From Schizochytrium sp. TIO01 (Eukaryota; Protista; Bigyra: Labyrinthulomycetes), in NCBI GenBank assembly GCA_004764695.1, contig SMSO01000025.1, positions 4,628,862 to 4,692,861 of the forward strand: 64,000 bases of DNA, given 5' to 3'. How positions within the stretch are numbered: the stretch's first letter is position 1; every line of letters starts with the position of its first letter. Under the pieces are notes generated by a model. That model saw nothing but the letters and a program-made list of their open reading frames with translations, did no database searches and was not told the origin of the DNA. Shown here piece after piece: positions 3,186-28,600 of the stretch. The translations under genes and the position numbers were made by a program.

Positions 3186-3542
<357 letters not shown>

Positions 3543-9965: not shown

Positions 9966-12026
9966 CTACTCGTCAGCAGCCTCGTCATCCATTGCGTTTT
10001 CTTGATCTTCGTTTCCGGTTTTGGCTTCTTTATTGTCTGCTTCATTCTCGTTCGCGTCGGTCCTCATCATGAACTCTCGAAGCATACTTGTAGCATATGA
10101 TCCTTTAGGCAACCAGAATGTAAAAAGAAGACCTTCACCATCTTCTTCGCCATCAGTCTGCGAATCCTTACCTTCCTTCAGTGCAGGCTGGCCCTGAGAT
10201 GGTCCAGCCTCAGTAGCAATACTCTTTGTGCGCTCGAGCTCTTCATCCAAATATTCCTTCACGGAAGATATTTTTTCCACATTAAACTCAAGAGACTCAA
10301 AGCTCAAGCGGGCCGGACGCAACGTAGAGCGCATGTTGGACAGCCAGAAAGCATCATTCGGAAGGTCACACACAGTTTTTACTGTATTGGCTTCAATCTC
10401 TTGCGGTAGACCTTGTGAAAAACTTCCTCCACGGTCACCAACTAAAGGCAAAGCAAACGTAATGCCAGCAGCCCTATCTTCAGCTTTGGGGCAGGCGTCC
10501 TCGTTTTCTACAAGGCGAGCCGAACCACCAGTTTGATTAATCACAACGTCACCAACCATGTCGCGCATAAACAAGTTTCGTTTGATGCGCTCGCTCAAAA
10601 TAGAGTTGAACACAGCACCTTGAAAAGCATTCATACTAAACTCGGACTGGAAGGAGCCTCGAGTCTTAATACGCTTTACCTTGCGACAGAACTTGAACAT
10701 ACCAGGGCGAGTGCACTTGCGTTTCTTACTGCCGGGGCGCAGCCCAGAGGTCCCTTCTTCAGCTGCTAGTGTCTTGTCTCCTTCTGCCGATGGTGCTTCC
10801 TCCTCAGTCGTGTCCTTGGGTTTAGCCTCACTTTCCTCGGCTACTCCGCTTGTATCTTGCTTTTCTTCAGTAGTCTGTTCGGCCTCGCCGCCGCCATCTT
10901 CGGCATTGACTTCGTCATCATCTTTGTTTTTGGGCCAGGGAGCCTTGCGCTTCTTGTTCTTATTTTGCTTATTCTGCGCCTGTTGCTGCTGTCTCTTCGC
11001 CTCTTCCTCACTAGCAGCCTTACCGGCATCCGTCTCTAGCCATTCAATGTACTCATGCGCGATTGAAAGCTCGCGATATCCTGACAAGGCTGTCTTGGCA
11101 TTTCGACCAACACGCTGCTCACCGAAGTAGTTGGGTACGCCCTTGCTCAAAATATCCTCGGCGATTGCTTTTGAGCGACGGAGAGCTTCGTCAGTGTCCA
11201 CACCAAGATCTGTGATGAGGATACGGAACTTGTTTCCACGCAGGTTTCCGCGCCGTAGCTTGCACGAGGCCTCTTGTAGGTCGCCGACAATGCGGATGCG
11301 CGGTGTTTTTGTGTCAGCCTCAATCAGGCTGCGGAGCTCCGCAAGACTTCTCCCATTTCTGTTCTCGATGCTAAATGTTTGCGTGCATGTTGCATAGCGG
11401 TCCTTGAGCCCAGCATAGCCAATGGAGTTGCGTCGCACGTTGAGAAGCTTTTCTAGGCGCCACGCCACATCCTTGGTGTTCATGCCAGATCTGCGAATCG
11501 TGATCCAGACGTGATTGAGCGTTTTGGCTTTGTGTTCATCATCGTGAGGGACCTCCGTCACGTTAAAGTACGCAGGGGCTTGCTTCAAAACACCGCCAAC
11601 ACCCTGTAGCGCAGGGTCCCGCACCAGCGCCAGCGACTCAACCCGAAATGCCTCGCGAAGTTTGGCAAACTTGGCAGCACGAACGGGATCTTCCTCAGCT
11701 CGAAGATCGCGAGCGTCCTTAACCTTCTTTTCACCACCCTCAGCGTGTTGGTTTGTGTTCATAGAGTTATTTGTTGTCTCCACGTCACCACCTTCCGCAT
11801 TGACAGCAGTAATCGAATCTGTGGCTCCATTCGCGACTAAATCTTCTTTCGCAGAGGCGTCCAAGCTATCCTTGGAGTTCGCAGAGGCGCTGGGTTTTAT
11901 CTCACCAGCTACCTCCATTTGGGCATCCTGATTTGTTGAAGTAGATGCAACCTTAGTATCGCCCACAGCCGCGTCTTGTTGAGCAGCGTTGCTCACAGAC
12001 TCGTTAGCAGACGCAAACTCACTCAT
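9966..12026 (-). CDS. PUS7: TruD/PUS7-family pseudouridine synthase
   Basis: Catalytic motif IGYAGLKDRYATCTQTFS, plus LRGNKFRILI, GVPNYFGEQRVG and FWLPKGSYATSMLRE. First ATG at 12026; the frame is open upstream to about 12179. Confidence 0.92.
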   Translation of the reverse strand: MSEFASANESVSNAAQQDAAVGDTKVASTSTNQDAQMEVAGEIKPSASANSKDSLDASAKEDLVANGATDSITAVNAEGGDVETTNNSMNTNQHAEGGEKKVKDARDLRAEEDPVRAAKFAKLREAFRVESLALVRDPALQGVGGVLKQAPAYFNVTEVPHDDEHKAKTLNHVWITIRRSGMNTKDVAWRLEKLLNVRRNSIGYAGLKDRYATCTQTFSIENRNGRSLAELRSLIEADTKTPRIRIVGDLQEASCKLRRGNLRGNKFRILITDLGVDTDEALRRSKAIAEDILSKGVPNYFGEQRVGRNAKTALSGYRELSIAHEYIEWLETDAGKAASEEEAKRQQQQAQNKQNKNKKRKAPWPKNKDDDEVNAEDGGGEAEQTTEEKQDTSGVAEESEAKPKDTTEEEAPSAEGDKTLAAEEGTSGLRPGSKKRKCTRPGMFKFCRKVKRIKTRGSFQSEFSMNAFQGAVFNSILSERIKRNLFMRDMVGDVVINQTGGSARLVENEDACPKAEDRAAGITFALPLVGDRGGSFSQGLPQEIEANTVKTVCDLPNDAFWLSNMRSTLRPARLSFESLEFNVEKISSVKEYLDEELERTKSIATEAGPSQGQPALKEGKDSQTDGEEDGEGLLFTFWLPKGSYATSMLREFMMRTDANENEADNKEAKTGNEDQENAMDDEAADE

Positions 12027-14467
12027 TGTTGATGATCTTGCTGGTGGCAAACACCGCCAGTACGCTCCCACGCGGCTCCGGGCCGCCGAGGCAACTCTGT
12101 TCGCACAGGCAAACACGTTCGCGACCAGCCTCTGAAGGCCTTTGCTGTAATTAGATAGCAGTGCCTCGGGCGAACCGCACTAAAAGGTCTGCGCGCAGCA
12201 GCGCCTTCTTGGGAGCGGCTGCTGCGCCGTCCACCAAATCAAATGATTACATGTTCTATAATCTACTTGCTCCTCCCTTTAACCCACTTGCAAACACTTA
12301 TATCCCACTTATAGCTTCACTTCTAATACACACTATACTCTAAAAGACTGCTAGATAGGAGATAAAGGTAAGTACCTTTACTTTTGCGAGAAGACTACCC
12401 TGCCTCAATTTCTTGGCTCTTGTGCCGAGCTCAGCGCTTTGATTTCTATAGAAGAAATTCACAATGCTTCATTGCCAAGCGCTGCAACTTTCGCAATGGT
12501 CTATTGGCTCCGAGCGTAAGGACGTTTACATATGTATCTTTTGGTTTTTATCATCAGTTTCCTCAGAGTTTCCAATTTTTATATTATATCCACTTGTATA
12601 GAAATAGAAATAAAGTAAAAATGGTGACATCATTATTTTGTAGTTTTAAATTCTTATATATATTTTTAATTTAACAGAAAAGAAAAAGAAGAGTAGTTAG
12701 TAAAAATGTGTACAGGTGTTTGTGTAGTTTGATAGCTCTAAAGGAGGCAGTGAAATAAATCCCAAATTGCGTTGCTCGATGAGATTGTCTTTGGCTTGGG
12801 CTGTCACTCGGTTTGGCCATGTGGAGTTCGTGTAGCTCGCACATGTGCCAAAAGCTAAGAGACCCCTCAGTGCGAATCAAAAAATACGTTTGCATATGTA
12901 CGAATTGCAAACCACCGGGTACCAAGGTCGACGGTATTAGTATACCAATCGATGATCACAAATCGCAACTTGAAGGTCTTTCTGATGTCGCTTTCTTTGA
13001 AGGATGATGTTTTGTATTCTTCTGTAGAACAAAGCCAACAGAGAAATACCTACTGCTTCTTCATAAAAAACGCGTTGTTGCCAACATCCATGAGCTTAGT
13101 TTGCAGCGCCAGCCCCCGAAGATTGGTGCACGGGAAAAGGACTTTGGCAGATGGAGTTCCTCTTCGGAGACCCAGATAATGCTTTGCCTATTTTGGGGCA
13201 AGGAATCAGGGCTGCTGATTCGCTAGTTCGCAATACGCAGAGGTTTTGCTTTGCTTTGCTTAGCACTCACTTCTTGAATAATGCCTTTTCACGATGTTTG
13301 ATTGTTAGCTAGACAGCAGGTATTTCGATTCACCATAATCTCTTGCGAAACTAAAACCACAACCTCACGATAAATGACACAGACGCCTCAGCCGAAGAGG
13401 AGAGCTGCGCTGCAGAGAGATATCGATACCTCGGAGGGTCAATATGACGGCGGAGAAGAAATCCAATATCACTCTGGCAGTGAAGCCATGAACTAAAATC
13501 CTAAAATCAACGAGCGGTGCCGCACAAACTACTACTACCTCATATATGTGTTTGTGTGTTTTCTACTAATTGCCTGAATAGGGACTAATTATAGAAAGTT
13601 GTGCGTGTGCAAAATGATGTAATTTCAGCCAAGGCTCATAATTTCGAGATACTACGGAGCATGTGTTGCGTCCATTGCATTGCATCAAACAGAGGTCGCA
13701 GGGTAAGAAGGAGGGGATGCCGGGTTGTTGGGCGTTCTATCCGCTCCAAAGGATCGATATTGCACATAGTGACGTGCTGTCGCTGCTTTCCGATTCTGAT
13801 TCTTTCTTTCGAACTTTCGAAGAGTTGTAAAAAGCAAAGGCTCCACTTTTTCTTTTTTTTTTTTTCAACTTTTTTTTAAATAAATTAATTAGCTTATTTT
13901 AGTTAATAACAATAATATTATTATTGTTATTAACTTTTACAATCATTACAATGAGATAAGGTGATAGTGAGAAGGAATCTCTGTAACGCACTATTTATCA
14001 TTAGTACTACGTATGTTCTACACAATGAAATCCGAGTTCTTCTTTTATATTTGAAAATCTTACCTACATAGCTACTATTTAGTATAGTAGGGGAGAATAC
14101 AAAGTTAAAAAGTTTTGAATAAAGTTTGCTCTTGAGACAATGATCTTCTCTCATCGTCTTTTGGCATAATCGAAATCAATTTCAAATAGGAATTACAACA
14201 AGCCGCGACAAAGACCTCGTGCGGTATCAAGCAAATTAGGGCGCAGATACGGACTGGAAAACTCGTAGGTCCTCTTGGAAGCCTACCTGGTCGCTTTTCT
14301 TGCACAGGTGTGTGCGTACGTACGTGCAGCAAGCCCAGAAAACCTTGTCATCGTTCATCCGCGTTGGCGGGATCGAAGATTTGCAGTGTTACGTGAAGGA
14401 GACGAACGGTGCCACCCTGTGTGGCGTGGCGTGATCTGTGGTCCGAGAAACAGGTCAGGTAAAGGAA

Positions 14468-17400
14468 ATGTCATCTTCTCGCGGACGAAACTCCGTGGCA
14501 GATGAGAATGCTGCACGAGACCAATCAAACCGAGTCGCGAACTTGAGGCAATCTGGGGAGCGCAACGGGAAACGGAAGATTTCGCACGTCGAAAACGAGC
14601 CCGCCTCAAAAAAAAAGAGCCGTACTCCAAAGCAAGCTTTGCAGAACCCCTTGCTTGAAAACTTGGCTCATCAAAACGGCGGCATCGGATTAGATCTCGG
14701 CTTGATGGGAGCTAACTTGAATAATTTTCTGAATCCGCTTGGGAATGCCCTACACCCACATGGGAACAACCTGAATCAAACAATCGGTAATACTGTCTCT
14801 GAGAATGTCAATTTCGGAGTGCAGTCTGGACTATCTTTGATATCTCAACAACAACATGAAAACATCCTTCGGTCTGGACAAACTGAACAGCTAAAACCTG
14901 GGTGGCCAACTCTCGCTGACACTGTTGCTCTTGCTGCCGCCCACATTGCAAAGATCATGCATCCTATAGCAACACAGAACAGCCTAGTTACAATGCCAGA
15001 AGAAGCCCAAAATAGCCATCTGATTGGAAATGAGAGCATCTTATCCCAAGTAGTGACAAATGTCTCTGACTCTACCTCGATTTTGCAGAACCTTTTGAGA
15101 AATGGTCAACTGAACCAGGTCCCGGGTGAGCTTTCTTTGGAGAAACTACAGGAGAATACAAAAGATCAGCGAGCAGGGTTGGTCAGCAAAGAAAAGTCCT
15201 CAACACAAATTGAAGCAGTTGATCGGGAGGCACTTCGTATTGCAATATTTCATATATTGTCTACTCATTGTGCCGGGAAGTCTGCAATTAGCCCGCGAAC
15301 CATTAGGATCGCTTCAGGAAAATTATGTACAATCCCCAATCTGATAAGGACAGGACCCCCGGCAACGATATATGACGCATATAAAAGGCTTGTTTTGGAC
15401 TATAGTTATCCAACGATGTCTAAGATCAAGTTTTACACCGTTTTGGAGCTCTTCACCGGAGGCGATATTGGGGTTTCCGCATTCGCTGACTTTTCGGCAA
15501 AGTCTCTTGTGGATAATCCATGCGCAATTCTCATGAGAATTATAGACAATCTAGATATTCAGCCTGAGAAAGTGCAACACTACTACAGCCAGGTGAACCA
15601 AATCAAAAAGTTTCTGAAGTTTCAGTTTGACTCTGAGGTTAAGCATTCTCAGAGCTCAGCTCATTCACCTGCGATACATGATGCTTTGTTTTCGCTATCT
15701 CCAAATAACCCACGTGCCACTCGCACAAAAAAATGCGCCAAGTGTGATTTTCCTTTCCGTGTGCTAAAACAATTCAAGTCTCTGATCCAAAGAAGTGGTA
15801 CACCAGGAGGGTGGATTCCCAATCCTTCATTAAATGCACGAGATGCATTAGTTCTTCTGGACAATATTTACGAAGCATTCCGCTCTTTTCAAGCTCACCG
15901 CATTAAAATTGTTACTCAACAGCTAGAAATAGAGAAAGTTCTATCAAATCTTAAAGAGCGCTGCCTGAAAGAGAATGACTCGAGCTGCTGTATTGTTGAA
16001 CTTGGGTGGATGAAATCATCAAGAACTATTTTGGCTCATAGCAATACTGAAATGACACTGAACGACACAAACGCGGCTTGGCAACGTGCTCGTATAACTT
16101 TTTTTCGACAGAAAGAGTCGGGAGGTCCAGGGATGGGGAACCAAGGGCATCAAGGCGAGGAACCTGAGCGTGTCACCGTGTACCTAGATCAGATTCTTAA
16201 AGATAATTGCAGGCCAGGACCTACGATAGTAGCAGCATTGATTGAAGCCATGCTGGAATGGATGCACACTGAACTCCCGTTCCTTAAGAGTGTAATCCTG
16301 CAAAGTAATAATTCAAAGTGCTATACATCGATGGACCTCATCGTCTTTTTGAAGCTTCTGAATGAGACTTCTCCTTTGCGCGTTGAACGTTTTATTCATA
16401 CGTCATGTTTCAGCGAGAAGACAATGCAAGATCTGCAGTTTGAAAAAACTATGGAACATCTTCAACAATTTATGTTGAAATCAAAAACACACCGTTGTAT
16501 ACAGGCTATTATATCACCATCTGCTCTTGCAGAGGCTCTAGCTTGGAACTCTGGGATGCAGAACTGTGGTGTTCAGCTGCTCAGCTTGGACCACTCAAAA
16601 TTGAAGGACCTGGCTACAATCACATCCTGTACAGGGCTTGCTTTGCAAAAGCGAGTAGGTTGTTGTAATGATGTGCACCTTCTTTCATGCTCCGAATCGA
16701 ATGTTAAGGATTGGGACTCCATCTATAAGGCAATACAGTTGCGCGAAAAGTTTACTATTAGAACAGCGTTGTTCGCCGGGCTTGGAGTAGATATTCAAGT
16801 TTGCTTCACACTTGGATCCAACAAAAAGATTGAAAACTCTTTGTACGAGACTTTGGTAGACATCGAGGGAGAAGATTTGTCATGTAATGAAAATAGCGAA
16901 AGTGTTTTCGAGTGCTCAATCTCCAGTGTGTCCGGTGGCGCTGCCTCCAATATTCCGTCATCGTCGTTTTGCTCGGAAGACAAAGAAAGTTTACTTTTTG
17001 TTGGAGATAATTCAAGTCGGAGTCCTTCTGAACGAGGAATAATCGTTTGCTCGGAATTCGATACTTGCAAAGATGAAGACACGCAGTATGCTAACAATGA
17101 CAGTGACTTAGACAATGAGTACATTTGCCTCGGATGGTTGCAGAACGCCATTAAAACCCCATTGCATGGATCACCTGATAATGGCTTCACATTCGCTGCC
17201 CCCAAATCAACAATATCCAATCGAGCTTTGCTGAGTGGCATACAGATTCTCCGATGCTCCAACCTTAAAAGTGTTGAAAGCCCGATGGATTTATCATTGA
17301 TAGGTATTGTTGGAGCACTCTGCCAAGAGTATCATCTTGGTGAACTTGATCTTGCCGAAGCTGCTTCGTTCGAAGCACGCAATGTGATGTTGAGCCCGTT

Positions 17401-18223
17401 AATTTCCTGCAGCGAAACTTTAAAAGAAGATCGATTTCCCCCGTGCGATCAACTAGATCAGTTTGTATCTGAAAAATTAGCAAAAGGCTGGGCGAATATG
17501 CCGACATACTCTATTGAGCCCTCTGATTTGAACTCTAGGTTTGATCAAATCAACGCAATCGAGAAAATTGTACGCGAAGAAAACTTATGGAAACATACAA
17601 TTGTGGACGCATTGAGTGTAGTGTTTCAAAAGTTGAAGAAAACAACCAAACACAAAGCCACACTCCGTCTATCAGAAATTGAACGAAATCTCGCATTGCT
17701 TTTGTGGGGCTCACCAAAACAGCAGCAAACTCTCGAGGTCCCTCAAAATATCAGATTTGGTACAATTGCTATTGATGCTGATGCAGAAGGCCGCACATTA
17801 CCTCGAGTTCAACAAACAAGCAAAACTTTGCTTGAAACTATCGCTTCTTTCAAGAAGTCTTCAAGCTGTCTTCCAACTGATTATCCTGCTTCCACACCAA
17901 CTAATAGTGCTATTACTGCTGCTTGTGTTACCGTGTCGGCCACTAGGCCTCCAGATACCAATATCATTACTAAGCCTTCTTCTGCTTTGCCAAGGAAACC
18001 TGATGAGATTGAGCCAAGGAGGCGCGGCCGTAAAAGCAACATCCCACAATATGTCCTGGACCACTTGGCTATCATGAATGATCAATATCCAAATATCAAA
18101 CCCAGAGATTTTATTGCGAAATTCCGTGAACGGTTTCCAGGGCATGTGCCAGGCCTTCGTTCGGGAACTTTTCTTTCCGATGATGAACTTAAGCGTGCTC
18201 ACAGAAAAATCAAATATAATTGA
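14468..18223 (+). CDS. 1251-aa protein containing a degenerate DDD-transposase-like (Sola3-like) domain; probable domesticated transposase
   Basis: Intact long ORF (first ATG 14468). Colinear motifs IPNLIRT, H..C-x2-C, QAHRIK..Q, ELGWMK, LQSNNSKCY, RFIHT..K..D and KGWA. Family assignment is from recalled motifs. Confidence 0.65.
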   Translation: MSSSRGRNSVADENAARDQSNRVANLRQSGERNGKRKISHVENEPASKKKSRTPKQALQNPLLENLAHQNGGIGLDLGLMGANLNNFLNPLGNALHPHGNNLNQTIGNTVSENVNFGVQSGLSLISQQQHENILRSGQTEQLKPGWPTLADTVALAAAHIAKIMHPIATQNSLVTMPEEAQNSHLIGNESILSQVVTNVSDSTSILQNLLRNGQLNQVPGELSLEKLQENTKDQRAGLVSKEKSSTQIEAVDREALRIAIFHILSTHCAGKSAISPRTIRIASGKLCTIPNLIRTGPPATIYDAYKRLVLDYSYPTMSKIKFYTVLELFTGGDIGVSAFADFSAKSLVDNPCAILMRIIDNLDIQPEKVQHYYSQVNQIKKFLKFQFDSEVKHSQSSAHSPAIHDALFSLSPNNPRATRTKKCAKCDFPFRVLKQFKSLIQRSGTPGGWIPNPSLNARDALVLLDNIYEAFRSFQAHRIKIVTQQLEIEKVLSNLKERCLKENDSSCCIVELGWMKSSRTILAHSNTEMTLNDTNAAWQRARITFFRQKESGGPGMGNQGHQGEEPERVTVYLDQILKDNCRPGPTIVAALIEAMLEWMHTELPFLKSVILQSNNSKCYTSMDLIVFLKLLNETSPLRVERFIHTSCFSEKTMQDLQFEKTMEHLQQFMLKSKTHRCIQAIISPSALAEALAWNSGMQNCGVQLLSLDHSKLKDLATITSCTGLALQKRVGCCNDVHLLSCSESNVKDWDSIYKAIQLREKFTIRTALFAGLGVDIQVCFTLGSNKKIENSLYETLVDIEGEDLSCNENSESVFECSISSVSGGAASNIPSSSFCSEDKESLLFVGDNSSRSPSERGIIVCSEFDTCKDEDTQYANNDSDLDNEYICLGWLQNAIKTPLHGSPDNGFTFAAPKSTISNRALLSGIQILRCSNLKSVESPMDLSLIGIVGALCQEYHLGELDLAEAASFEARNVMLSPLISCSETLKEDRFPPCDQLDQFVSEKLAKGWANMPTYSIEPSDLNSRFDQINAIEKIVREENLWKHTIVDALSVVFQKLKKTTKHKATLRLSEIERNLALLLWGSPKQQQTLEVPQNIRFGTIAIDADAEGRTLPRVQQTSKTLLETIASFKKSSSCLPTDYPASTPTNSAITAACVTVSATRPPDTNIITKPSSALPRKPDEIEPRRRGRKSNIPQYVLDHLAIMNDQYPNIKPRDFIAKFRERFPGHVPGLRSGTFLSDDELKRAHRKIKYN

Positions 18224-19386
18224 TTTTCATTTTCATTTTCATTTCTTTTCTCTGGCTCTTCCATTAACCAGTTCGGATGTGTCCTTCTTACCCGTTGATA
18301 ATGAGTTTGAGTTTGACTTGAGTGTTCCTGTTATTTAAGACATTGTTCCTACCATAAAGAACGCAGAGTATTGTTTTTATGAACTGACTCTACTGTACAG
18401 TAAACAGTAAAGACGTCATCTTATGCATTTAACCTAGGACTTTGAACCTCTAAACCTAGAAGACCCTACGATGGATCAAGGGTTTAGACTTTCTATAACA
18501 ACTCAGAAGAGAAGAAGCACATAATCCTGCAAGAACATCTTTGAAACATAATTACAGCTCAGTCTCATGTAAAGAAGTCAGAGCAACGAATTAGTTATAC
18601 GAGCGAAGATTCTGATGTCACCTGATACACTTCAACTGTAACATACGTTGCCACCATTGAGCGACTCATACGCTTAATATACGAAAACCGTCATGCAGGA
18701 TCAAAATAAATTTAATGAGACTTCGGTACACAAGGACTCAGTGTGATGATCTTTCACAAACATGTCAGAAGGGTATATTTTGTCGAAAATATTCACACGA
18801 GAAGCACTCCAACTTTGTATTTTGGAACTCTTACTCGATCACTTCGATAATCAAGAACGAAGGATCAAAATTACTGATAGAATGAGAAAAAAAAATAGGA
18901 TCACGTCACTTATAATATGAATATTGCAGTTTAACGGATATCTGGTTGAAATTCGAATAAAACCAAAATAAAATAAAAACAAATAGCTCCTAACACAAGG
19001 TAGTAGTGTATATCTAGTCACTTTGAAGAAAAACGAAGGCATGATCAAAGTTGGTTCGCGAAGAAGAAAGAAGAACAGGTCATATTGTAGGTCGATTTAC
19101 ACTCTAGCTGCAATCTGGAAGCCATTTAAAAGAAAATGAAGCATCATATTTATTTTTGTGTTCCCCAATGCGATTTCAGCTTCCAAAGTCCTTGGCAAAT
19201 GGTTCCAAATTCAATGTGTGTACATCCTTTCAATTTTTCAATACAATTTGGGAGAACTGCATACCTAGTACTAGACAGAGCAATTTCAGATTACATCTGC
19301 TACACAGATAAATCTGTAATTGCCAACTGCAAAGATTTCACAGTTCAGTTCATTTCGGAGAAGGTGCGAATCGGACCTTGGCAACA

Positions 19387-21960
19387 ATGATTGGGGCATA
19401 CATGCAAGTGATGAGCAGATTAGAAGCAAAACTTGCCTGGTGTCTTGCATCCACTTCAAGGGAATGTTGTAAAAAGCCGAAGCTCACTGTAATACTATAT
19501 TTTTTGATAACCTCATGCCTCGCACTCGGTATGCTGACTGCCGAGCTGGAAACTGAAGGCGTAAAACTATGGGTCGACCAAAATTCAGAGCCTATGGATA
19601 ATATCAAGTATGCAGATAACAATTTTGCTCCACCCGCACGGACAAACATTTTATTTGTTACTGCAAAAGAGGAGGGGGAGAATGTTTTGACTTTTGAGAC
19701 ATTGAAGGAGGCCTTTGAGGTCCATATGGAAATATTAAGTGCAAGAACTATTAATGGAAATGGCCTTGCAGAACTCTGTGAAGTCACATATGGCGGTTAT
19801 TGTAGTGTCTCTGGGCCATTAAGATTCTGGAATCTATCATATGATGCATATTCATTTATGGAAAGCTCTGATGCAACAGTACAAACAACTTGTGCTCAGA
19901 CAATATATCCAGACGGTTTTGTTATTGTTCAAAGCTTGGACTTTGGCAACTACTCTGTGAACAATGGTCTTGCATCTGCTCAATCGATTCGATTGACTTA
20001 TGAGCTGCAGAATACTTTAAGTGATGGAACAAATACCGAACAGATGGAATGGGAAGATCTTTTTATTGAGATCTCGACGAAATCTCGTAACAGTATCAGC
20101 ACAACATGTTTTGCAACGAAGAGCGTTGATGAAGAGCTTGCGAAATCAGTCGGTAAGGACATCGTTCTTATGGTTATTGCTTACACAACCATGATTACAT
20201 TCGCAAGTCTCACGCTTGGCAAGGCGTGTAGTCCAATTTATGGGCGCGCTCTTTTGGCAAGCACTGATGTAATGGTTATCATCTTCGCTGCCGCGGGAGC
20301 ATACGGATTGCTTGCATTTTGCCAAATCCCCTTCACAACGTTAACCCAAGTACTTCCTTTTATCCTTGTAGGAGTTGGTATCGACAATGCTTATGTCATC
20401 GTTGCAGCGTTTGACCGCACAGAGCGTTCTCACTCGCATCCAGATCGTATGTATGAGGCCATACATGAAGCGGGAATGTCAATTTCGGTGACATCAGGAA
20501 CAGACTTTTTTGCTTTCATGTTTGCTTCCATGACAAAGCTTCCAGCTTTGCAATGGTTTGGCCAATATGCGGCTGCATCAGTATTCTTCATTTATACCGC
20601 CCATATCACAGTTTTCCCAGCTCTATTGACCCTTGACACTCGACGCATGGAGGCTGGAAGAGCTGATATTATGCCATGCATTCGGTTAAGGAACTTGGCC
20701 AAGGTAGCAGATGTCAACGATTCTACTCGAAAGGAATCTGAAACCTCGCATGCATCCTCTGCAGAGGACAACCTCGGCATTTTCTTTCGTGATACTCTCT
20801 CACCATTTCTTTTACACCCTATTGTGAAACTCATCGTTTTACTGATGTTTCCGGCAATGTCAGCTATTGGGTTATTAGAGGCCACAAGAATTGAAAATTC
20901 CTTTGATTTCCGTCTCATCGCACCAGATGATTCATACTTGCAAGACTTTTATGATATCTCAGATGCATACTATGGATCGATTAATGCATTTACACCCATG
21001 GGCCTTTACATTAAAGGTGTTGACTATACACAAGCCAGCGTACAAGCAAATATTCGAAATCTCAGCGACTTTCTATACAGTGCAGATTTTGTGGATCCAT
21101 CGAAAGGTCGACTCGACTGGCATCTTGCTTTCACAGCTTGGTGCAATCTCCATCCCGTGTGGAGCGCGACTCTCTCTCCGGAAGGCTTCGCAGTTGGTGA
21201 AAACTTTCTGCCAGCTTTGCAAGAATTCTTACAAGATGGCGTCTTTGCCGGTTTTCAAAAAAGCATTGCGTGGAATAGTTCTTCTGCTGATAGCATAATA
21301 GCTACACGGATTTGGGTTTACCAGGTCCCAGGTGATGACACAGATCAAAGTGTCGCGGTTCTGGAAGCTGCGGAGACATTCACAGAGACCTCTGTATTTG
21401 GGGATGAAGCCTTTATCAGTTCGCCCTTATTTTCTACTTATGATCAGTATCGCATCATAAAAGACGAAACGATTATGAGCCTCCTCTTGGCACTGGTAGC
21501 TGTAATCGTAGTCACAGCATTTTTGCTTGTGCATCCTGGAATGGTTGTGATTTGTGTGGTAGTTGTTGCAATGGTTTTTGCGTGCATTCTAGGTAGTCTT
21601 TCTTTCGTTTGGCAGATTTCTCTTAATGCAGTTAGCTGCATCAACCTTCTGATGGCCATCAGCCTCGTCGTTGACTTTTGTATTCACGTATTATATACTT
21701 TCGGCAATCAGGATCACCGGCTGTCAAGGGATGAACGAGTGAAGGAAACCATGTTTCTCATTGCCCCTTCTGTGTTTCTTGCAATTACAACAACCTTTTT
21801 AGGTACGGTTCCACTTATCGCTGCGAGTTCTGAGGTCTTTCGAGTGTTTTTCAAGTCGTTTGTCAGTATTGTTACCTTTGGATCTACCTTTGGTCTAATA
21901 TTTCTTCCGGTGGTACTTAGTTTGATTGGGCCTTCTGTTCCACGACCAAAACATAGCTAA
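19387..21960 (+). CDS. Patched/NPC1-related RND-family sterol-sensing-domain membrane protein
   Basis: About 12 TM segments with two large lumenal loops; SSD motif LPFILVGVGIDNAYVI; second-half LVVDFCIH; C-terminal FGLIFLPVVLSLIGP; no NPC1 N-terminal domain. Confidence 0.92.
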   Translation: MIGAYMQVMSRLEAKLAWCLASTSRECCKKPKLTVILYFLITSCLALGMLTAELETEGVKLWVDQNSEPMDNIKYADNNFAPPARTNILFVTAKEEGENVLTFETLKEAFEVHMEILSARTINGNGLAELCEVTYGGYCSVSGPLRFWNLSYDAYSFMESSDATVQTTCAQTIYPDGFVIVQSLDFGNYSVNNGLASAQSIRLTYELQNTLSDGTNTEQMEWEDLFIEISTKSRNSISTTCFATKSVDEELAKSVGKDIVLMVIAYTTMITFASLTLGKACSPIYGRALLASTDVMVIIFAAAGAYGLLAFCQIPFTTLTQVLPFILVGVGIDNAYVIVAAFDRTERSHSHPDRMYEAIHEAGMSISVTSGTDFFAFMFASMTKLPALQWFGQYAAASVFFIYTAHITVFPALLTLDTRRMEAGRADIMPCIRLRNLAKVADVNDSTRKESETSHASSAEDNLGIFFRDTLSPFLLHPIVKLIVLLMFPAMSAIGLLEATRIENSFDFRLIAPDDSYLQDFYDISDAYYGSINAFTPMGLYIKGVDYTQASVQANIRNLSDFLYSADFVDPSKGRLDWHLAFTAWCNLHPVWSATLSPEGFAVGENFLPALQEFLQDGVFAGFQKSIAWNSSSADSIIATRIWVYQVPGDDTDQSVAVLEAAETFTETSVFGDEAFISSPLFSTYDQYRIIKDETIMSLLLALVAVIVVTAFLLVHPGMVVICVVVVAMVFACILGSLSFVWQISLNAVSCINLLMAISLVVDFCIHVLYTFGNQDHRLSRDERVKETMFLIAPSVFLAITTTFLGTVPLIAASSEVFRVFFKSFVSIVTFGSTFGLIFLPVVLSLIGPSVPRPKHS

Positions 21961-22617
21961 GATTTCTTTATATTTCTTTGTACCTTTCTTCTTTGTATAA
22001 TTTCTTTATTAAACCATATATCAGTCTAACTCTTTTTCAACTTGCTACCCCAGCTTTTTGTGTTAATTTGAGTACATGGCGACAAAAGTGGAGACGTTTC
22101 CTTTCAAGATTATCTCTCATATACCCATCCCTGCGCCCAGACATAACACACATACATGCCAAATCTGGCCCCAACATTAAATGAAATTCACGATCCCATT
22201 TCAAATTCGACCTTCCTCTATACATCGCTCCTTCACTTAACGGTACGGGAACGCTAAATTCCCCTTTACATTTGCCATCTCAAGAGCTTCTTGACCTGAT
22301 ACAAAGATGATGTATTCAAGCTGCAGTCACTAATATCTTGAGTGATGTACCAAGATTTACGTATAATGTTGATCTTTTTCCTTTTCGACTTGGAGTTTTA
22401 CAAAAGTAAATAAAGAGTAGTAGAACAATGCTCTTTACAAAAAAGAAAAAGATTAGCAAAAGGAAGAGGATCATTCACGCTTTGAATCTGTTGCTTCACG
22501 GAGACAAAGCCGCTACTAGAGGAGCAGTGGCCTCCTCGCTGCAGGAGCCTGCTCGCCCAGGCCGGGTTTTGGATTTCGTGAGGGCTCGCCCTGGCGTGGG
22601 TAAATAGCGCCAGCGCC

Positions 22618-25600
22618 ATGCGGCGTGAGCAGGTCTTGTGGAACGTCTACGTGGACGGTGGCGCCGCCCATGCCGATGTGGTGCTGCCGAGGCTTCCAGA
22701 GGCTGGTGCTGAAGACCTTGGACCGTGCACGGTAGAGTTTGTCCGTGAGGATGACGGTGAGGACCACATCGCGCTTGAGTACTACTTCGAGGACGTACCT
22801 GGCAGCGGCAACGTCGCCACGAGCTCATCCTCTTCGAGCTTGGCAACCTTTATCTCGACCCAAACTATAAACCAGAATCAAACTCTGACGAACCAAAGCC
22901 ACAATCAGGATAATAGCGAAGACCAGAATCAAGAAATTATTGTGAATTCCGCTGCACATTTGCCCGGAGCTGCTTCATCTGCACCCATCGTGATGGCCCC
23001 TAGTGGAAGGGCAGGGCTCGCTCGCAACTCTGCTAGCAGAAGCAGGAGCAGCACTCCATTACTGCCCGGTGCCATTTCGGATGAAGAAGATGGACATGAT
23101 GAAGAAAGATCGATTGCATCGGGGTCTGAGGACGATGATGACTTCAATGGCCTTCTGGCTGAAGCTGCGCAGAAACCAACAACGATGACTGTACGGAATG
23201 GTCAGACGGTCAGGCTGCACATTACGGCCTCGTCTAGGTTCTCTGCAACGTCACAGAATGTAGCAACTGCCAAGGCAGAGACTCAGAAGGGAGCGGACGG
23301 TAGTGTAAGGGCTTCTACTACAGGCGAGAAGTCTGATGTTTCACCAATTGAGCGCCACCTCAGCGAGAAGAGCATTAGGGCTTCAGACTCCGGCGAGCAC
23401 GATGGAAGTGGGTCTAGCAGGAATGCCTTCGTCACTGTGCGTGGCCGAATCGTAGTACACAGAAAGTCGTCATCTTCATTCTCTTCATCATCTTCTTTAT
23501 CAAGTCTTGACAGAGTTAACAGCAAGGGACGTGACGATGCTAATGAGAAAGATCGCCAGAGTATGTGCACAGACGATGATACCATTGCTGACGCTGAAGG
23601 TAACGATGATGAGCGTGTCAAGTGCGATAGGAATGGTGATGATAACGATGGCGAGGACGGCCGCGATGATGATGACGACGACGATGATGATATCAATAGC
23701 GAAGAGGAGGATGTAGAAGAGGTTGCACTCATCATTATGGTCTGCAAGAGTGTGCTAGAATGCGATGTCTCTCAGCTCGCTTTTTACGACTGCATTCCTA
23801 ATAAAAGCTATTGGAAAGAATTCACGATTTGGAATCGAAGCGAAATTCCATTGCAGTTTCGTTGCATTAGCGTCAACGCAGATGCGATTGCTTTGCAAGT
23901 GCAAGAGGATACTAAGCTTTTTGATGCAGGCCGAAGGCTGTCGGTACCAGGGTATAGCCATCGGCGCCTTAGGGTGACATATCGCCCAGCAGGTGAAGGG
24001 GCTTTCAAGTACACCATTTGCATCGAAAATATTAATAATCTGAGCAACTCAGAACGGGTGCTAGTTCATACAAATACGCATGCTCCGGGGAGGGCAATGG
24101 AAAGTGGAGGTGCCCTTTTGGTAAGGGATGCTAAAGCGAACACGGAGATTCGCTCTATTAACTTCAATGACTGTCTTCTTGGTGTGAAGGTTGAACGCAT
24201 GGTGCGTATAAAAAACACAACGGATCGTGAGCTTGATATTCCTTTAACATCTTCGTCGCCATTTGTTAGCTTCACGTTTGATCAGGATAAGCGCGTTAAG
24301 GAAGACCTCGATGCCCCACCGCGGGCTTCCACAGCGAATAATTCCATGAAAGAAGTTGGCAATGCTGGTAATATCAACTCTACAATTTTGTCAAACAAGG
24401 ATGAACTTATGAGAAGTCTCAATGCTGATTTACTCTCTTACGTTTCGTCAGAGGTTGCAAAACCACCAGATGTAGATGGCGTGGATGCCATGACAAATCA
24501 AGATGACGATGCCAGCGAAAAGTCTTATCAGGTTGGCCATCAAGTTGATCTTCAGTATATCGAAGCTGGATCGGAGAGCGTTGCAGGTTCAGAAAACAGA
24601 TCTCGCGCCACTTCACCAGTCCCAATGGGTGGTTGGGGTGACAATGGTCCAGAAGATGAGGAGAATGCCTTTCGCGTCCGACGATTCAGCTCGCAATCAA
24701 TGCCAGTGCTCACGACGGATCGTGAGAGGTCCCGATCTCCTCCAAGCACTGTCGAACAACAACAACATCAGGTAGAAAAAAAGACTGTACGGCCAACACC
24801 ATTAATCTCAAAACAATCAATGGAAACTCCATCAATATTAAGTCGAGAAAGGTCAGTGGATGGGAATTCAGATAATTTTGGCAGCGCTATTGAACCTGGT
24901 TCTAATACTGCAAGCTCGCGGAACTTAAGAGTAAGGAAAGATAGTTTCGATAGTGCAGCTACAAATAGTGATGATGATCGCGATGAAGACGAAGATGAGG
25001 ACGACGAAGATGACGATGAAGATGACGATAGTGACCTGAACAGGAAGTCGGGCTCATCTAATAGTCGAAAACATCGCGGGAGGGGTGGGCGAGGCAAGGA
25101 GTCGCAAGCATCACACATGGGAAAGCTCGCACGACGTGGAAGTGCTGACTCCACAGCTAGCAGCCACAAAGGATCAGATTTGAAGGAGTCTCATGGTAGT
25201 AAACGTGCAATGCAAAAGGCTTCTGATGCAACTCTGAGTTTAGGACCAGGTATGGAGAAAGTCGTAATCATCAAATACCGCCCGGGGGTACTTGATCAGG
25301 ATGAAGAAACAAGTACATCGAAACTAGCATACAAGCTCCGCCGTCGTGACTTCCTGATACACTTCTCGAGTCTTACGATTCATGCGTCTGCTAGAGTCTG
25401 TAAGAACGGCATTGCTCTTGCTGCTCCGGAATTGAACTTTGGAGATTGTAATGTAGGTGTCCTCAAGACAAAGACTGTTCGCATCTTTAATCTTAGTGAC
25501 CTGAAGACAAATGTAAAAGTCCTGCTGCGTAGTAAAGTCGTCACACTCTATGTTGAAAATGTAGAGGAGCCGCTCGTTGGCGGAGCTCTTGTTGAAAACT

Positions 25601-28600
25601 CATTCGAGCTTGAACCACATGCTGTAAAAACAATAACTGTGTGGTTCATGGCTCGCAAAGTAAATCTGAACTACCATAAGCTTATTCAATTCAAGTCAGT
25701 TCAGTCTAATGTCACATTAACAGTGCGCTCCTCGAACATGGACTCACACAACATTATCTACCACTCATTATTCTATCGCCTGCTTCCTTTAGCTAAGGAT
25801 TATCCTCGGGAGGTTCTCCAAGGCCAAAAACACAAGACACCGCCTCGGAATCATCTTAGTGAAATTGATTTCGGTGAACTTGTTTTTCGAAGCCCCGGTC
25901 TTCGTTCGTTTCAAGTTCGAAATATTGCAAATAAGCCCATCACCTTGCGCTTCACGACAAGCCGGGCACACCTTCGATGTTATCTCCTTGAAGAACGCCC
26001 TTCTGATGCTAAACGAGTAGATTCTGCTAAAGGTACCGGTGAAGGTGCTGGGCTAGTTGCTGGAAGTTCATTAGACCCTATTACACCAGCAAAGACCCAT
26101 CGTAAGGCCGAAAGCCTTGAAGATGCTCCGACGACGAGGCATATTCTTAGTGATTCCTTCGATGATACTTTTGTGCCAACCCCAGGTGGTGCGAGTGAGC
26201 GGAAGTCATCAACTGACTATCAGTCGGGCATGACACCAACGCAAACGCTAAAGTCCTCAATAACCGCGAATGAGGACCCTGTGGTTCGTCTTCGCCACCA
26301 TTCTATGACGAATATGTCAACAGAGTCTTCAGGAGATGTTTACAGTGCAAAGGATGCGGAGCCCAGTTCGAACCATCCCGTTGAATCAGATAAAATGTCA
26401 GCCATGGCCTCAGCTTTGGAGAATATTCATCTTACTCACTCTTGGTCTGGTACTCCGGGTCCATGCAAATCAGATGAGGACAATGATAATAATCTCGATA
26501 GTGCTGGTCTCGATGGGGATACTGAAAGTTTGCATGAACAAGAGGACGATGACGATGTACCATCATCTTCCCTTGGTAGGCGTCGCTTGAGTGGTCACAT
26601 TTCTGATGAAGTAAGTGAGCTTCACAGCGTCTATCGAGGCACACGTAAAACTTCTGATGATGAAAGTGCGGATGATGTGGCAAGGGAACAAGCGAACGTC
26701 CGCCGATCTCGGTCTCTCACAAATTTACTTGAAAAGGATGACGACGAAGACAGCGATTTGCCACAGGCTCCTAGACGCGGCGGTGGCGGTACGGACAAAA
26801 GCAAAAAGGGGAAAAAGCAAAACGCGCACGAGAACACTCCAAGCGCCCACAGCTTTGAATTTTGGACCCCTGACCATGATAAAAGAGGTAGTGATCTCGA
26901 AGATAGCGCAGTTGGTTCTGGAGTCTCTCTTAACACAAATGGTCCAGGCGAAAATACATCAAAATCCCAACGGCGTTCCGAAATTCCTGACTGGAATGCG
27001 ATTTGCGATGCCTTTGAGCGCCCTCAGAAGCTATTTTTCAGTGGTATGGAACCTAGCGAAGAACACGCTGTCGTAAACCAAGCCGAAGAGCGCATTAAAG
27101 CACTCAAACAGGCTCTGCAAAACCTCACGCCTCTGGGAAATCTTGTAATTCCTGCTGGACAAAGTATACGCATTGGGGTCGTTATTTACCCCCCTCCCCG
27201 GAAATCTTCTGATCAATCATCAGAATCCGCTCTTGACGAGGATGATGCTTCTGCTGCTGCTGTTGTGCGTGATCAAGATACCCACTTCACGGGAAAACTC
27301 CGTTCAGTAACTGAACATATCTTTGTCGAGCAGCTGGATTTGGATGAATCTGATATGGAGCGTATTCGTCAAATTCATACGTGGGGGCGGGTTACACATG
27401 ATGAAGTTCGCTTGGAGAAGCGTGCTCTGCCTGTTGTAGCAAAGGTGGGTAAGGCAATTATGACATTTGCTCAGCGTCAGATCAACTTTGGGCTTGTCAA
27501 GTTTCCTTATTACCCAGCCATCCGAACATTGTATTTAAGCAACGAAAGTGCTCTACCTTTGGTTTACAAATTCCGCAAATCTAGATCCTTTAATGCTGGC
27601 TTTCTTGAACTCATACGCAACTCAATGGGTATGGTGCGCCCTTTTAGTACAAAGGAAATTCAATTCCGTTTTATGCCAACGATGGCAGGGCCAATTGATG
27701 AGACGTTAACAGTGTACAATGTTCTAGATGAAGCTGGATCATTAGCTATTAAGATCAAAGCTACAGTTGTTCGGCCGCAACGTTTCCAGGTGGATACTGC
27801 ACAACTCTTTTTTGAGTGTATTAAGCGGAGTAGTAGCGTGCAATCGCTTGTCATTCGGAACGCCTATCACAAGCATCGCGAATTTGCTATCAAACTCAAG
27901 GGAAGCAGCTTGGAGCCTTTTCGTTTAAGGTTTGCGTCAATTGCGTCTTCAACACGAATTCCACCACAGCTTGGTGAACAAATTGAACATCTTCAACATA
28001 AGTACCGCATCGCCGAAACCAAAAACCAGGTGAAAAAGCTCAAATCTCTTCGTGCTAAGCTCGATGAGCTATACGAAAAGGGAAACAAGCAACAAGCTGA
28101 TCACATGCGCTTGTTGGCATTACCCACCGGAGGAGCTAAGCTCGCTATCCCCCCTGAAGCAACAGCAAGTGTCCAGCTCCAGGCATTTGTGAGCACAGAG
28201 CGGAGTGGACAACTTCGACCTGGTGACTACCATGGAATTTTGCAAATTTTCCAGGTGAAAAACCAAGATGCTGTTCTCGAAGTTCCCATTGTGATTCGCA
28301 ACTCAATCATAAGTCCTTCAATGAGTCGCTATGACACACCTCCGTTGATTCCTGCCTCTTTAGCTGTCGATGTGGAAGCAACAGATGATACAGCACAACG
28401 CCGCACTAAGTTCGAGTTTGCAAGGCAGCATCGCAAGGTCGAGTTGTTGATTGGGAAAACGACTAATGAGATCTCGTCATCAACCGTGCCTCGACCACTA
28501 TCTACAACTATCACTGAACCAAAAAAATCAAGTGATGAGGCTCCTTTATCAAAATCAATGCATCAGCACTCCTCATCTCAGGGTTCCAAGGTCTCTGATT

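What the first reader, a model, noticed from the sequence alone, without database searches (positions are those of the whole stretch)
14468..18223. Probable domesticated Sola3-like DDD transposase with two of three catalytic Asp replaced
Seen: an intact 1251-codon ORF whose core reads, in order, ASGKLCTIPNLIRT...IYDAY, SKIKFYTVL, FLKFQF..H..FSLS..CAKC, FQAHRIKIVTQ, IVELGWMK (15992-16015), AAWQ, VILQSNNSKCY (about 16292-16324), RFIHTSCFSEKTMQDLQF (16388-16441) and late KGWA. From memory this parallels the DDD-transposase family I associate with Sola3 (xPNVIRT, WKAHxLRxxNQ, DWAMK, SWH, SDNAGCY, GKxxxD, GWA). The first two catalytic Asp positions read G and N, and the third D is kept. The protein also has an N/Q-rich N-terminus with a basic NLS-like stretch (GKRK...KKKSR) and a C-terminal RRRGRKS plus helical, DNA-binding-like module. 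I saw no terminal inverted repeats. Inference: a transposase co-opted as a non-catalytic DNA/chromatin-binding host protein; I know of no described case from this family in this lineage.
Basis: partly seen in the sequence, partly recalled or inferred. Interest (0 to 1): 0.78.

Follow-up and report, generated by a model that had tools for sequence, protein, structure and literature searches.

The report
Tamed, non-cutting Sola3 transposase in thraustochytrid
This gene of a marine protist descends from a cut-and-paste jumping-gene enzyme (Sola3 type); it has no transposon ends and has lost most of its DNA-cutting site, yet keeps an intact, probably transcribed reading frame, so it likely now serves the host as a non-cutting DNA-binding protein.

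Summary
Observation confirmed, interpretation largely supported. The 1251-codon ORF has 259 relatives (best E 5e-51, 20-42% identity). Relatives carry a DDD triad, and 16 of 79 related loci have terminal inverted repeats, 11 with TTAA on both sides. By eye the family matches the published Sola3 profile. An AlphaFold model has an integrase-like RNase H fold. The query reads G513/N614/D655 and has no such ends. It keeps 7 of 28 conserved active-site positions but 27 of 41 elsewhere (p 0.0013), has no stop or frameshift among 35 strain variants, and lies in intronless RNA-like contigs. Selection among strains is weak overall (pN/pS 0.49-0.68). Synteny with the Hondaea PUS7 gene failed; copy number could not be tested. 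Four other triad-dead relatives exist, two in Hondaea; a single origin is unresolved. Verdict: probably a domesticated, non-catalytic Sola3-derived host protein, function untested. This is a new member of a known kind; the scan has noted other Sola-type candidates on other DNA.

The parts
14468..18223 (+). Single-exon ORF, 1251 aa, Sola3 transposase-derived protein with a degenerate active site
   Evidence: no joints in RNA-like contigs
14179..18241 (+). Span of the transcript-like contigs (about 290 nt before the ATG, 18 nt after the stop); strand inferred from the ORF, contigs do not give it
   Evidence: X13 14179-18241, X19 14187-18241, X16 from 14180, X18 to 18241; 12608-13509 uncovered in all 4 runs; DNA runs X9 and X15 run past these ends. 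Weak hint by the tool's own note
14567..14623 (+). Basic stretch aa 34-52 with bipartite-NLS-like spacing (pattern recalled, untested)
   Evidence: sequence
14897..14974 (+). Possible relic helix of the transposase N-terminal domain (about aa 144-169); the rest of aa 1-254 has drifted
   Evidence: alignment; profile score alone not significant (E 0.13); BLASTP to P0005 starts at aa 136
15230..16837 (+). Transposase core, aa 255-790: helical region followed by the RNase H-like domain
   Evidence: AlphaFold model of aa 260-800, pLDDT 85, pTM 0.79
15677..15898 (+). Kept His404, Cys423, Cys426, His477: near-invariant in the family, predicted structural metal site (geometry not checked)
   Evidence: 97-100% conserved in DDD rows
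15983..16567 (+). RNase H-like domain, about aa 506-700
   Evidence: VIA-align top rows are retroviral integrases and Mos1, Z 8-9, rmsd 3-4 over 130-177 residues
16004..16006 (+). First catalytic position: Gly513 in place of Asp
16307..16309 (+). Second catalytic position: Asn614 in place of Asp
16430..16432 (+). Third catalytic position: Asp655 kept; the preceding ETQDG motif is fully replaced
16838..17347 (+). Acidic/Ser-rich linker, aa 791-960; acidic and variable in the transposases too
   Evidence: 6 nonsynonymous and 0 synonymous strain variants
17483..17494 (+). Relic GWA of the family's GWARR motif; the surrounding domain is strongly eroded in this gene
   Evidence: no profile hit here, unlike the other four dead relatives
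17996..18199 (+). C-terminal RGRK plus three-helix module, aa 1177-1244, inherited from the transposase; candidate DNA-binding part
   Evidence: profile from 21 other full-length family members, E 1.7e-6; BLASTP to the transposase of TIR-bearing locus L008, E 3e-5; 2 nonsynonymous and 5 synonymous variants in aa 960-1251

Best explanation
The gene is a Sola3-type DDD transposase that has lost its transposon ends and its catalytic centre and is likely kept by the thraustochytrid host as a nuclear, non-cutting DNA- or chromatin-binding protein. Shown: transposase ancestry, G/N/D triad, no terminal repeats, intact frame across the strains laid. Inferred: (1) without two of three metal-binding Asp and most residues of the three active-site blocks it cannot cut or join DNA; (2) selection kept the folded core and the His/Cys site as a scaffold; (3) the N-terminal basic stretch would take it to the nucleus; (4) the C-terminal RGRK-helical module would contact DNA, probably AT-rich sites or relics of Sola3 ends, so that it acts as a transcription or chromatin regulator.
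For: Ancestry; terminal repeats and TTAA on relatives; Sola3 profile; fold. The query nests in a starred clade (96/95) with the TTAA-flanked element L008. Selective loss: 7 of 28 conserved positions kept in the active-site blocks against 27 of 41 elsewhere, Fisher p 0.0013, while DDD rows keep 93% and 91%. Neutral substitution to the same amino-acid loss gave a mean of 25.6 stops and 0 of 200 open frames; at only 10% change also 0 of 200 (indels not modelled, which would close the frame faster). Strains: 20 runs in 11 studies hold half or more of the words of 14000-18600, one run a possible source; 35 coding variants, none nonsense, no indel in the ORF. RNA-like contigs cover it without introns. 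The C-terminal part is the most constrained region (pN/pS 0.12-0.16, p 0.008-0.025, region chosen after the fact). Triad-dead full-length relatives occur in Hondaea (GBG24416.1, GBG24245.1), and GBG24245.1 and P0024 are 39.5% identical over 1256 columns.
Against: Pooled pN/pS is 0.49-0.68 and not significant once transitions are weighted (p 0.18); against the most divergent strain it is 0.34-0.48 (p 0.01-0.055), about the same as a partial PUS7 control (7N/6S, from a cut table). Hondaea PUS7 (GBG29780.1, 180,858-bp contig) is not on the contig of either dead Hondaea homologue (882,701 bp), so synteny on that side failed; the Patched side was not tested. Sistership with GBG24416.1 has only 87/87 support. 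No close orthologue was found in two word-based searches. The query's N-terminal and GWARR domains are much more eroded than in the other dead relatives, and conserved basic residues next to the first Asp (K515, K517, R524, K533, R534) are gone, which weakens the DNA-binding step. The C-terminal module has no convincing solved relative.
Confidence: 0.63

Rival explanations
1. Domesticated, but working as a protein scaffold that no longer binds DNA itself: the RNase H-like core and helical bundle are kept for protein contacts.
For: The N-terminal transposase domain is nearly unrecognisable (E 0.13), the GWARR domain gives no profile hit, and conserved Lys/Arg of the first active-site block are lost.
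Against: The basic RGRK-helical tail is kept and is the most constrained region among strains; an NLS-like stretch is present (sequence).
Confidence: 0.17
2. Domesticated as a transposon tamer: the dead protein would bind Sola3 ends or join active Sola3 transposase complexes and block or steer them, much as PiggyMac-like proteins are proposed to co-assemble with PiggyMac.
For: Several full-length dead homologues persist, two in one Hondaea scaffold, next in the tree to TIR-bearing elements. Precedent in ciliates (PMC9942806, passages).
Against: No active Sola3 element was shown in this genome (no assembly held). At 24-37% identity to the nearest active transposases, with the N-terminal domain eroded, recognition of current ends is doubtful.
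Confidence: 0.1
3. A stranded, defective transposon whose frame is still open by chance or recent inactivation and is transcribed incidentally.
For: No syntenic orthologue shown; pooled pN/pS not significantly below 1 with transition weighting; intronless like its parents; the true parent element may be missing from the databases.
Against: Half of the family-conserved positions are changed, concentrated in the active site, a pattern that neutral decay does not give; 0 of 200 neutral simulations keep the frame; no ends remain; end branch 2.0 changes per column.
Confidence: 0.08
4. Still an active nuclease or transposase with a rearranged active site.
For: The fold is predicted intact; Asp655 and the near-invariant Asp574 are kept.
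Against: Gly and Asn at the first two positions, and Glu646 and Asp649 also lost; no ends to mobilise.
Confidence: 0.02

Closest known systems
Sola3 DNA transposons (Sola superfamily; RNase_H_Sola3 profile in the supplement of PMC5751038; superfamily description in PMC10741241)
   Same: Same order and spacing of motifs in the RNase H domain. Profile positions 10-36 match family columns 513-539 without a gap; positions 69-131 match the D2 strand through to the GK motif (by eye, against 50, 52). Relatives have DDD, 4-bp target duplications and lengths of 3.4-7.3 kb, within the 2-9 kb quoted for Sola.
   Different: The query lacks two triad Asp, most active-site motifs, terminal repeats and target duplication; it is a derivative, not an element. 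The protist relatives have mostly short repeats (about 27-40 nt, three of 110-190 nt) and varied termini; that described Sola3 elements target TTAA is recalled from Bao et al. 2009, which was not held.
Hondaea fermentalgiana hypothetical proteins GBG24416.1 and GBG24245.1, and unnamed P0012, P0024
   Same: Full-length, triad-dead members of the same transposase family. P0012, P0024 and GBG24245.1 show the same selective loss of active-site blocks (p 7e-6, 3e-6, 4e-4).
   Different: Only 24-31% identical to the query; different replacements at the triad; better-kept N- and C-terminal domains. GBG24416.1 keeps the second Asp and lacks the first-Asp block. None is annotated as transposase-derived.
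PiggyMac-like proteins of ciliates (PMC9942806, passages)
   Same: Protist transposase derivatives outside transposons, with incomplete DDD triads and several paralogues.
   Different: PiggyBac superfamily; shown purifying selection and knockdown phenotypes; they work with an active PiggyMac in programmed DNA elimination, for which there is no sign here.
Other non-catalytic domesticated transposases (CENP-B-like from pogo, PMC4231638; SLEEPER from hAT, PMC11351766; PANDA from Harbinger, PMC9129072; search listings and abstract starts only)
   Same: Host genes made from a cut-and-paste transposase and used for DNA or chromatin roles.
   Different: Other superfamilies, other DNA-binding domains, other hosts; functions are known.

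Membership tests
Sola3 transposase lineage (ancestry) | RNase H-like (integrase-type) catalytic fold | tested here: met
   AlphaFold model pLDDT 85; VIA-align Z 8-9 to integrases and Mos1; Foldseek ranks integrases high but none at E<=1e-3
Sola3 transposase lineage (ancestry) | Match to the published Sola3 RNase H profile | tested here: met
   Read positions 1-42 and 69-131 of 131 and compared by eye with the family alignment: same motifs, same spacing. Not scored with HMMER; the Sola1 and Sola2 profiles were not compared; positions 43-68 not read
Sola3 transposase lineage (ancestry) | Relatives are DDD transposases inside terminal inverted repeats with 4-bp target duplications | tested here: met
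   16 of 79 loci with flanking repeats (2 further low-complexity hits dropped; many loci too short to show both ends); TTAA on both sides in 11, CTAG in 1
Active Sola3 transposon (this locus) | Complete DDD triad | tested here: not met
   G513, N614, D655
Active Sola3 transposon (this locus) | Terminal inverted repeats and target-site duplication | tested here: not met
Active Sola3 transposon (this locus) | Multiple genomic copies | not testable with these tools
   No assembly held. Hint only: in DNA runs X9 and X15 no 85-95% copies and no loose ends, and one X9 contig runs 8 kb past the 5' end
Domesticated transposase (host gene) | Intact reading frame outside a transposon | tested here: met
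   no stop or indel among 35 variants from 7 runs
Domesticated transposase (host gene) | Purifying selection | tested here: inconclusive
   Strong indirect signal; strain pN/pS 0.49-0.68 pooled, p 0.035-0.18; no between-species dN/dS possible
Domesticated transposase (host gene) | Expression | tested here: inconclusive
   5 runs guessed to be RNA cover the ORF; in the 4 laid with flanks, 12608-13509 and 18922-19372 are uncovered; the runs are not on record as RNA and were found by holding this stretch
Domesticated transposase (host gene) | Orthologue at a syntenic position in related species | tested here: inconclusive
   Hondaea PUS7 lies on another contig than both dead homologues; the Patched side and closer species were not testable; candidate orthologue GBG24416.1 has 87/87 support
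Domesticated transposase (host gene) | Demonstrated host function | not testable with these tools
   needs localisation, binding and knockout experiments

The most novel reading that the evidence does not exclude
Thraustochytrids have repeatedly recruited Sola3 transposases into a small, old family of catalytically dead nuclear proteins (this gene, P0012, P0024 and two Hondaea genes) that bind Sola3-type ends or partner with active transposases, forming an undescribed transposon-control or chromatin-organising system in stramenopile protists.
Probability: 0.15. Interest if true: 0.72.

Novelty: new member of a known kind. Interest (0 to 1): 0.46.

Why it matters
Domesticated transposases are well known from other superfamilies. 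Ten searches of the held library listed no paper on a Sola3-derived host gene or on any transposase-derived gene in thraustochytrids. The library lacks most subscription papers, the original Sola paper was not held, and the list of domesticated elements in the supplement of bioRxiv 10.1101/2021.09.26.461848 could not be seen. If confirmed, this adds a transposon superfamily and a protist lineage to the domestication record. It also shows that such genes sit unrecognised as 'hypothetical proteins', since Pfam scores neither the query nor the core of 30 of 30 relatives. Thraustochytrids are genetically tractable (own knowledge), so the function can be tested directly.

Tried and rejected
Word-based protein searches found only the gene itself or nothing; this reflects their sensitivity, since HMMER found 259. 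Pfam and PDB sequence searches: nothing. Single-sequence AlphaFold failed (pLDDT 34). The ESM atlas pointed to DUF7869-bearing clusters at 0.91-0.94 for the core and to nothing for the C-terminus; no family member hit DUF7869 in Pfam, so this is a lead only. No related loci with the single protein in metagenomes or with the profile in viral contigs; one weak hit in prokaryotic genomes (E 2e-5, 70 aa) was not pursued. One origin for the five dead proteins: FastTree gave 0.984 (57 of 150 rows); with active-site columns removed and a mixture model it was absent from 200 of 200 bootstrap trees (36 rows), yet the AU test did not reject it (p 0.127); unresolved. Synteny through PUS7 failed. A weak likeness of the C-terminal module to Arc repressor (E 0.0035 only for a two-copy construct, 0.85-1.2 for single chains) is not accepted. 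No run is on record as RNA. The bacterial promoter scan is irrelevant for this eukaryote and gave chance-level counts. The Majorek supplement is stored cut and held no Sola alignment. Kolobok and piggyBac also use TTAA (piggyBac; Kolobok recalled) but were set aside because the motifs follow the Sola3 profile; their profiles were not scored. No complex prediction was run.
Full report
Context. The window is eukaryotic and gene-dense. The gene lies between a TruD/PUS7 gene (9966-12179, minus strand) and a Patched/sterol-sensing gene (19387-21960, plus strand). The best named relative of the PUS7 is from Hondaea fermentalgiana at 54% identity, so the host is very likely a thraustochytrid. No assembly is held for the window.

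The ORF 14468-18223 encodes 1251 aa, and every motif checked is at the stated place. Pfam gives nothing and word-based searches found no relative. An exhaustive phmmer search with aa 260-800 found 259 proteins at E<=1e-3, best 4.7e-51, mostly 20-40% identical, many 1000-1300 aa long (the best 150 were listed and used).

What the family is. In a profile alignment of the query with 149 hits, three columns hold Asp in 98 of 104, 127 of 138 and 120 of 131 filled rows. A scan of metagenome contigs with 27 DDD-bearing members gave 79 loci. Self-BLAST found flanking inverted repeats in 18; two were low-complexity and dropped. Of the 16 left, 11 have TTAA directly outside the repeat on both sides, one has CTAG, and four are unclear. 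The elements are 3.4-7.3 kb, and their ORFs carry the full triad where covered. The family is therefore made of genuine cut-and-paste transposons. PMC10741241 (passages) describes Sola as DDD transposases with 4-bp duplications, 2-9 kb, and repeats of 11-1124 bp. I read 105 of the 131 positions of the RNase_H_Sola3 profile in the supplement of PMC5751038. By eye its consensus follows the family without a gap from the first Asp to the conserved His 26 residues on, and again from the helix before the second Asp to the GK motif, where the profile ends, short of the third Asp. This was not scored, and the Sola1 and Sola2 profiles were not compared. An AlphaFold model built on 76 rows is confident (pLDDT 85, pTM 0.79). 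Its best structural matches are retroviral integrases and Mos1 at Z 8-9, with four-helix bundles matching the upstream helical part at similar Z; Foldseek ranked integrases high but none at E<=1e-3. D655 sits at the start of the helix after the last core strand, where the third catalytic residue is expected (own knowledge of the fold).

What the query has lost and kept. It reads G513, N614, D655 and has no inverted repeats or target duplication by three tests. Of 69 columns conserved in at least 80% of 63 DDD rows it keeps 34; DDD rows keep 92% on average. The loss is concentrated: 7 of 28 kept in the three active-site blocks against 27 of 41 elsewhere (Fisher p 0.0013), whereas DDD rows keep 93% and 91% (the blocks were drawn around the triad on the same alignment). 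His404, Cys423, Cys426 and His477 are kept. The C-terminal RGRK-helical module comes from the transposase (E 1.7e-6 to a profile of 21 other full-length members; E 3e-5 to the transposase of L008). The N-terminal domain and the GWARR domain are much more eroded than in the other dead relatives.

Is it maintained? Random substitution to the same level of amino-acid loss gave a mean of 25.6 stops, and none of 200 runs stayed open; at 10% change none of 200 did either. This assumes that the conserved positions were lost after immobilisation. Twenty runs from 11 studies hold at least half of the words of 14000-18600, one of them a possible source of the window; they were found by holding it, so this does not show fixation. 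Seven runs were laid. They show 35 coding variants (33, 2 more, whose table was cut): 22 nonsynonymous, 13 synonymous, no stop, no indel. pN/pS is 0.49 unweighted (p 0.035) and 0.68 with transitions weighted (p 0.18); against the most divergent strain 0.34-0.48; for aa 960-1251 0.12-0.16 (2N/5S, chosen after the fact); the linker has 6N/0S. A partial PUS7 control gave 0.34-0.46. This is weak support. Runs guessed to be RNA cover the gene as intronless contigs: three studies begin at 14179-14187 and three end at 18241, the intergenic 12608-13509 is uncovered in all four, and DNA runs go on past both ends. This is a hint of a 4.06-kb mRNA, not proof.

Relatives that are also dead. Four other full-length hits near the query have broken triads: P0009 (Hondaea GBG24416.1), P0036 (Hondaea GBG24245.1), P0012 and P0024. 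P0024 and P0036 are 39.5% identical over 1256 columns and are joined at 100/100 on a long stem, which looks like an old vertically inherited gene. The query pairs with P0009 at 87/87 inside a starred clade that holds the TTAA-flanked element L008. One origin for all five appeared in FastTree (0.984), vanished under a mixture model without the active-site columns (0 of 200 bootstrap trees), and was not rejected by an AU test (p 0.127). Hondaea PUS7 is on a different contig from both dead Hondaea genes, so synteny is not shown. P0149 (G/N/G) and P0063 (D/R/A) fall elsewhere in the tree and look like separate losses.

How it most likely works. Shown: ancestry, dead triad, no ends, open frame. Inferred: it cannot cut DNA; the core is kept as a folded scaffold; the basic stretch at aa 34-52 would import it into the nucleus; the C-terminal module would bind DNA, making it a transcription or chromatin regulator (0.63). 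Rivals are a pure protein scaffold (0.17), a tamer or partner of active Sola3 transposases (0.10), a stranded relic (0.08) and a rearranged active enzyme (0.02). Domestication of some kind thus stands at about 0.9; the DNA-binding step is the weakest link.

Literature seen. Passages only: PMC10741241, PMC9942806, PMC5753468, PMC12258536, PMC11139960 (Sola3 abundant near effector genes in an oomycete), PMC4455052, PMC5199201, PMC8151067, PMC9783078, PMC10294476. Passages plus supplement: PMC5751038, PMC3985635 (file stored cut). Passages plus section 5: bioRxiv 10.1101/2021.09.26.461848 (its list of domesticated elements was not seen and may bear on novelty). Bao et al. 2009 was not held; TTAA as the Sola3 target is recalled. 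Ten searches listed no Sola3-derived host gene. The scan's own notes hold three Sola-type domestication candidates in other genomes, unchecked here, and none for this sequence.

Verdict. A real, probably domesticated, catalytically dead Sola3-derived gene with dead relatives in Hondaea. New member of a known kind; interest 0.46.

Noticed in passing
P0024 (unnamed, 45.7-kb contig) and P0036 (Hondaea GBG24245.1): A pair of triad-dead Sola3 derivatives, 39.5% identical over 1256 columns and joined at 100/100 on a long stem; a cleaner case of old domestication than the query itself.
   Followed up: partly
P0149 (1271 aa; cluster of 2; contigs of 22 and 18 kb) and P0063 (1217 aa): Further full-length family members with broken triads (G/N/G and D/R/A) in other parts of the tree; possibly independent domestications.
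   Followed up: partly
L008:3227-8272: TTAA-flanked element with a perfect 39-nt inverted match (TTAA included), the closest TIR-bearing relative of the query. Its transposase lies in more than one frame, and a second 354-aa ORF (3389-4453) with Cys/His motifs that recall MULE-type SWIM and zinc-knuckle domains (recalled, not scanned) sits inside the ends.
   Followed up: no
L026:761-5067 and L034:278-4350: Family members flanked by CTAG (or TAG) in place of TTAA: a variant target site in this transposon lineage.
   Followed up: no
L001-L079: A large protist/algal Sola3-like transposon lineage with mostly short terminal repeats and no Pfam model for its transposase core.
   Followed up: partly
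window 13901-13935: Perfect 17-bp AT-rich palindrome about 530 bp upstream of the ATG; run X19 has a separate 504-nt contig over 13593-14095.
   Followed up: no
window 22582-34002 (+): A 3806-codon open frame with long acidic and Ser-rich stretches; not examined.
   Followed up: no
supplement of PMC5751038: The published Sola3 profile stops at the GK motif, before the third Asp; the conserved Glu nine residues earlier (646 in the query, lost) could be mistaken for the third catalytic residue.
   Followed up: partly
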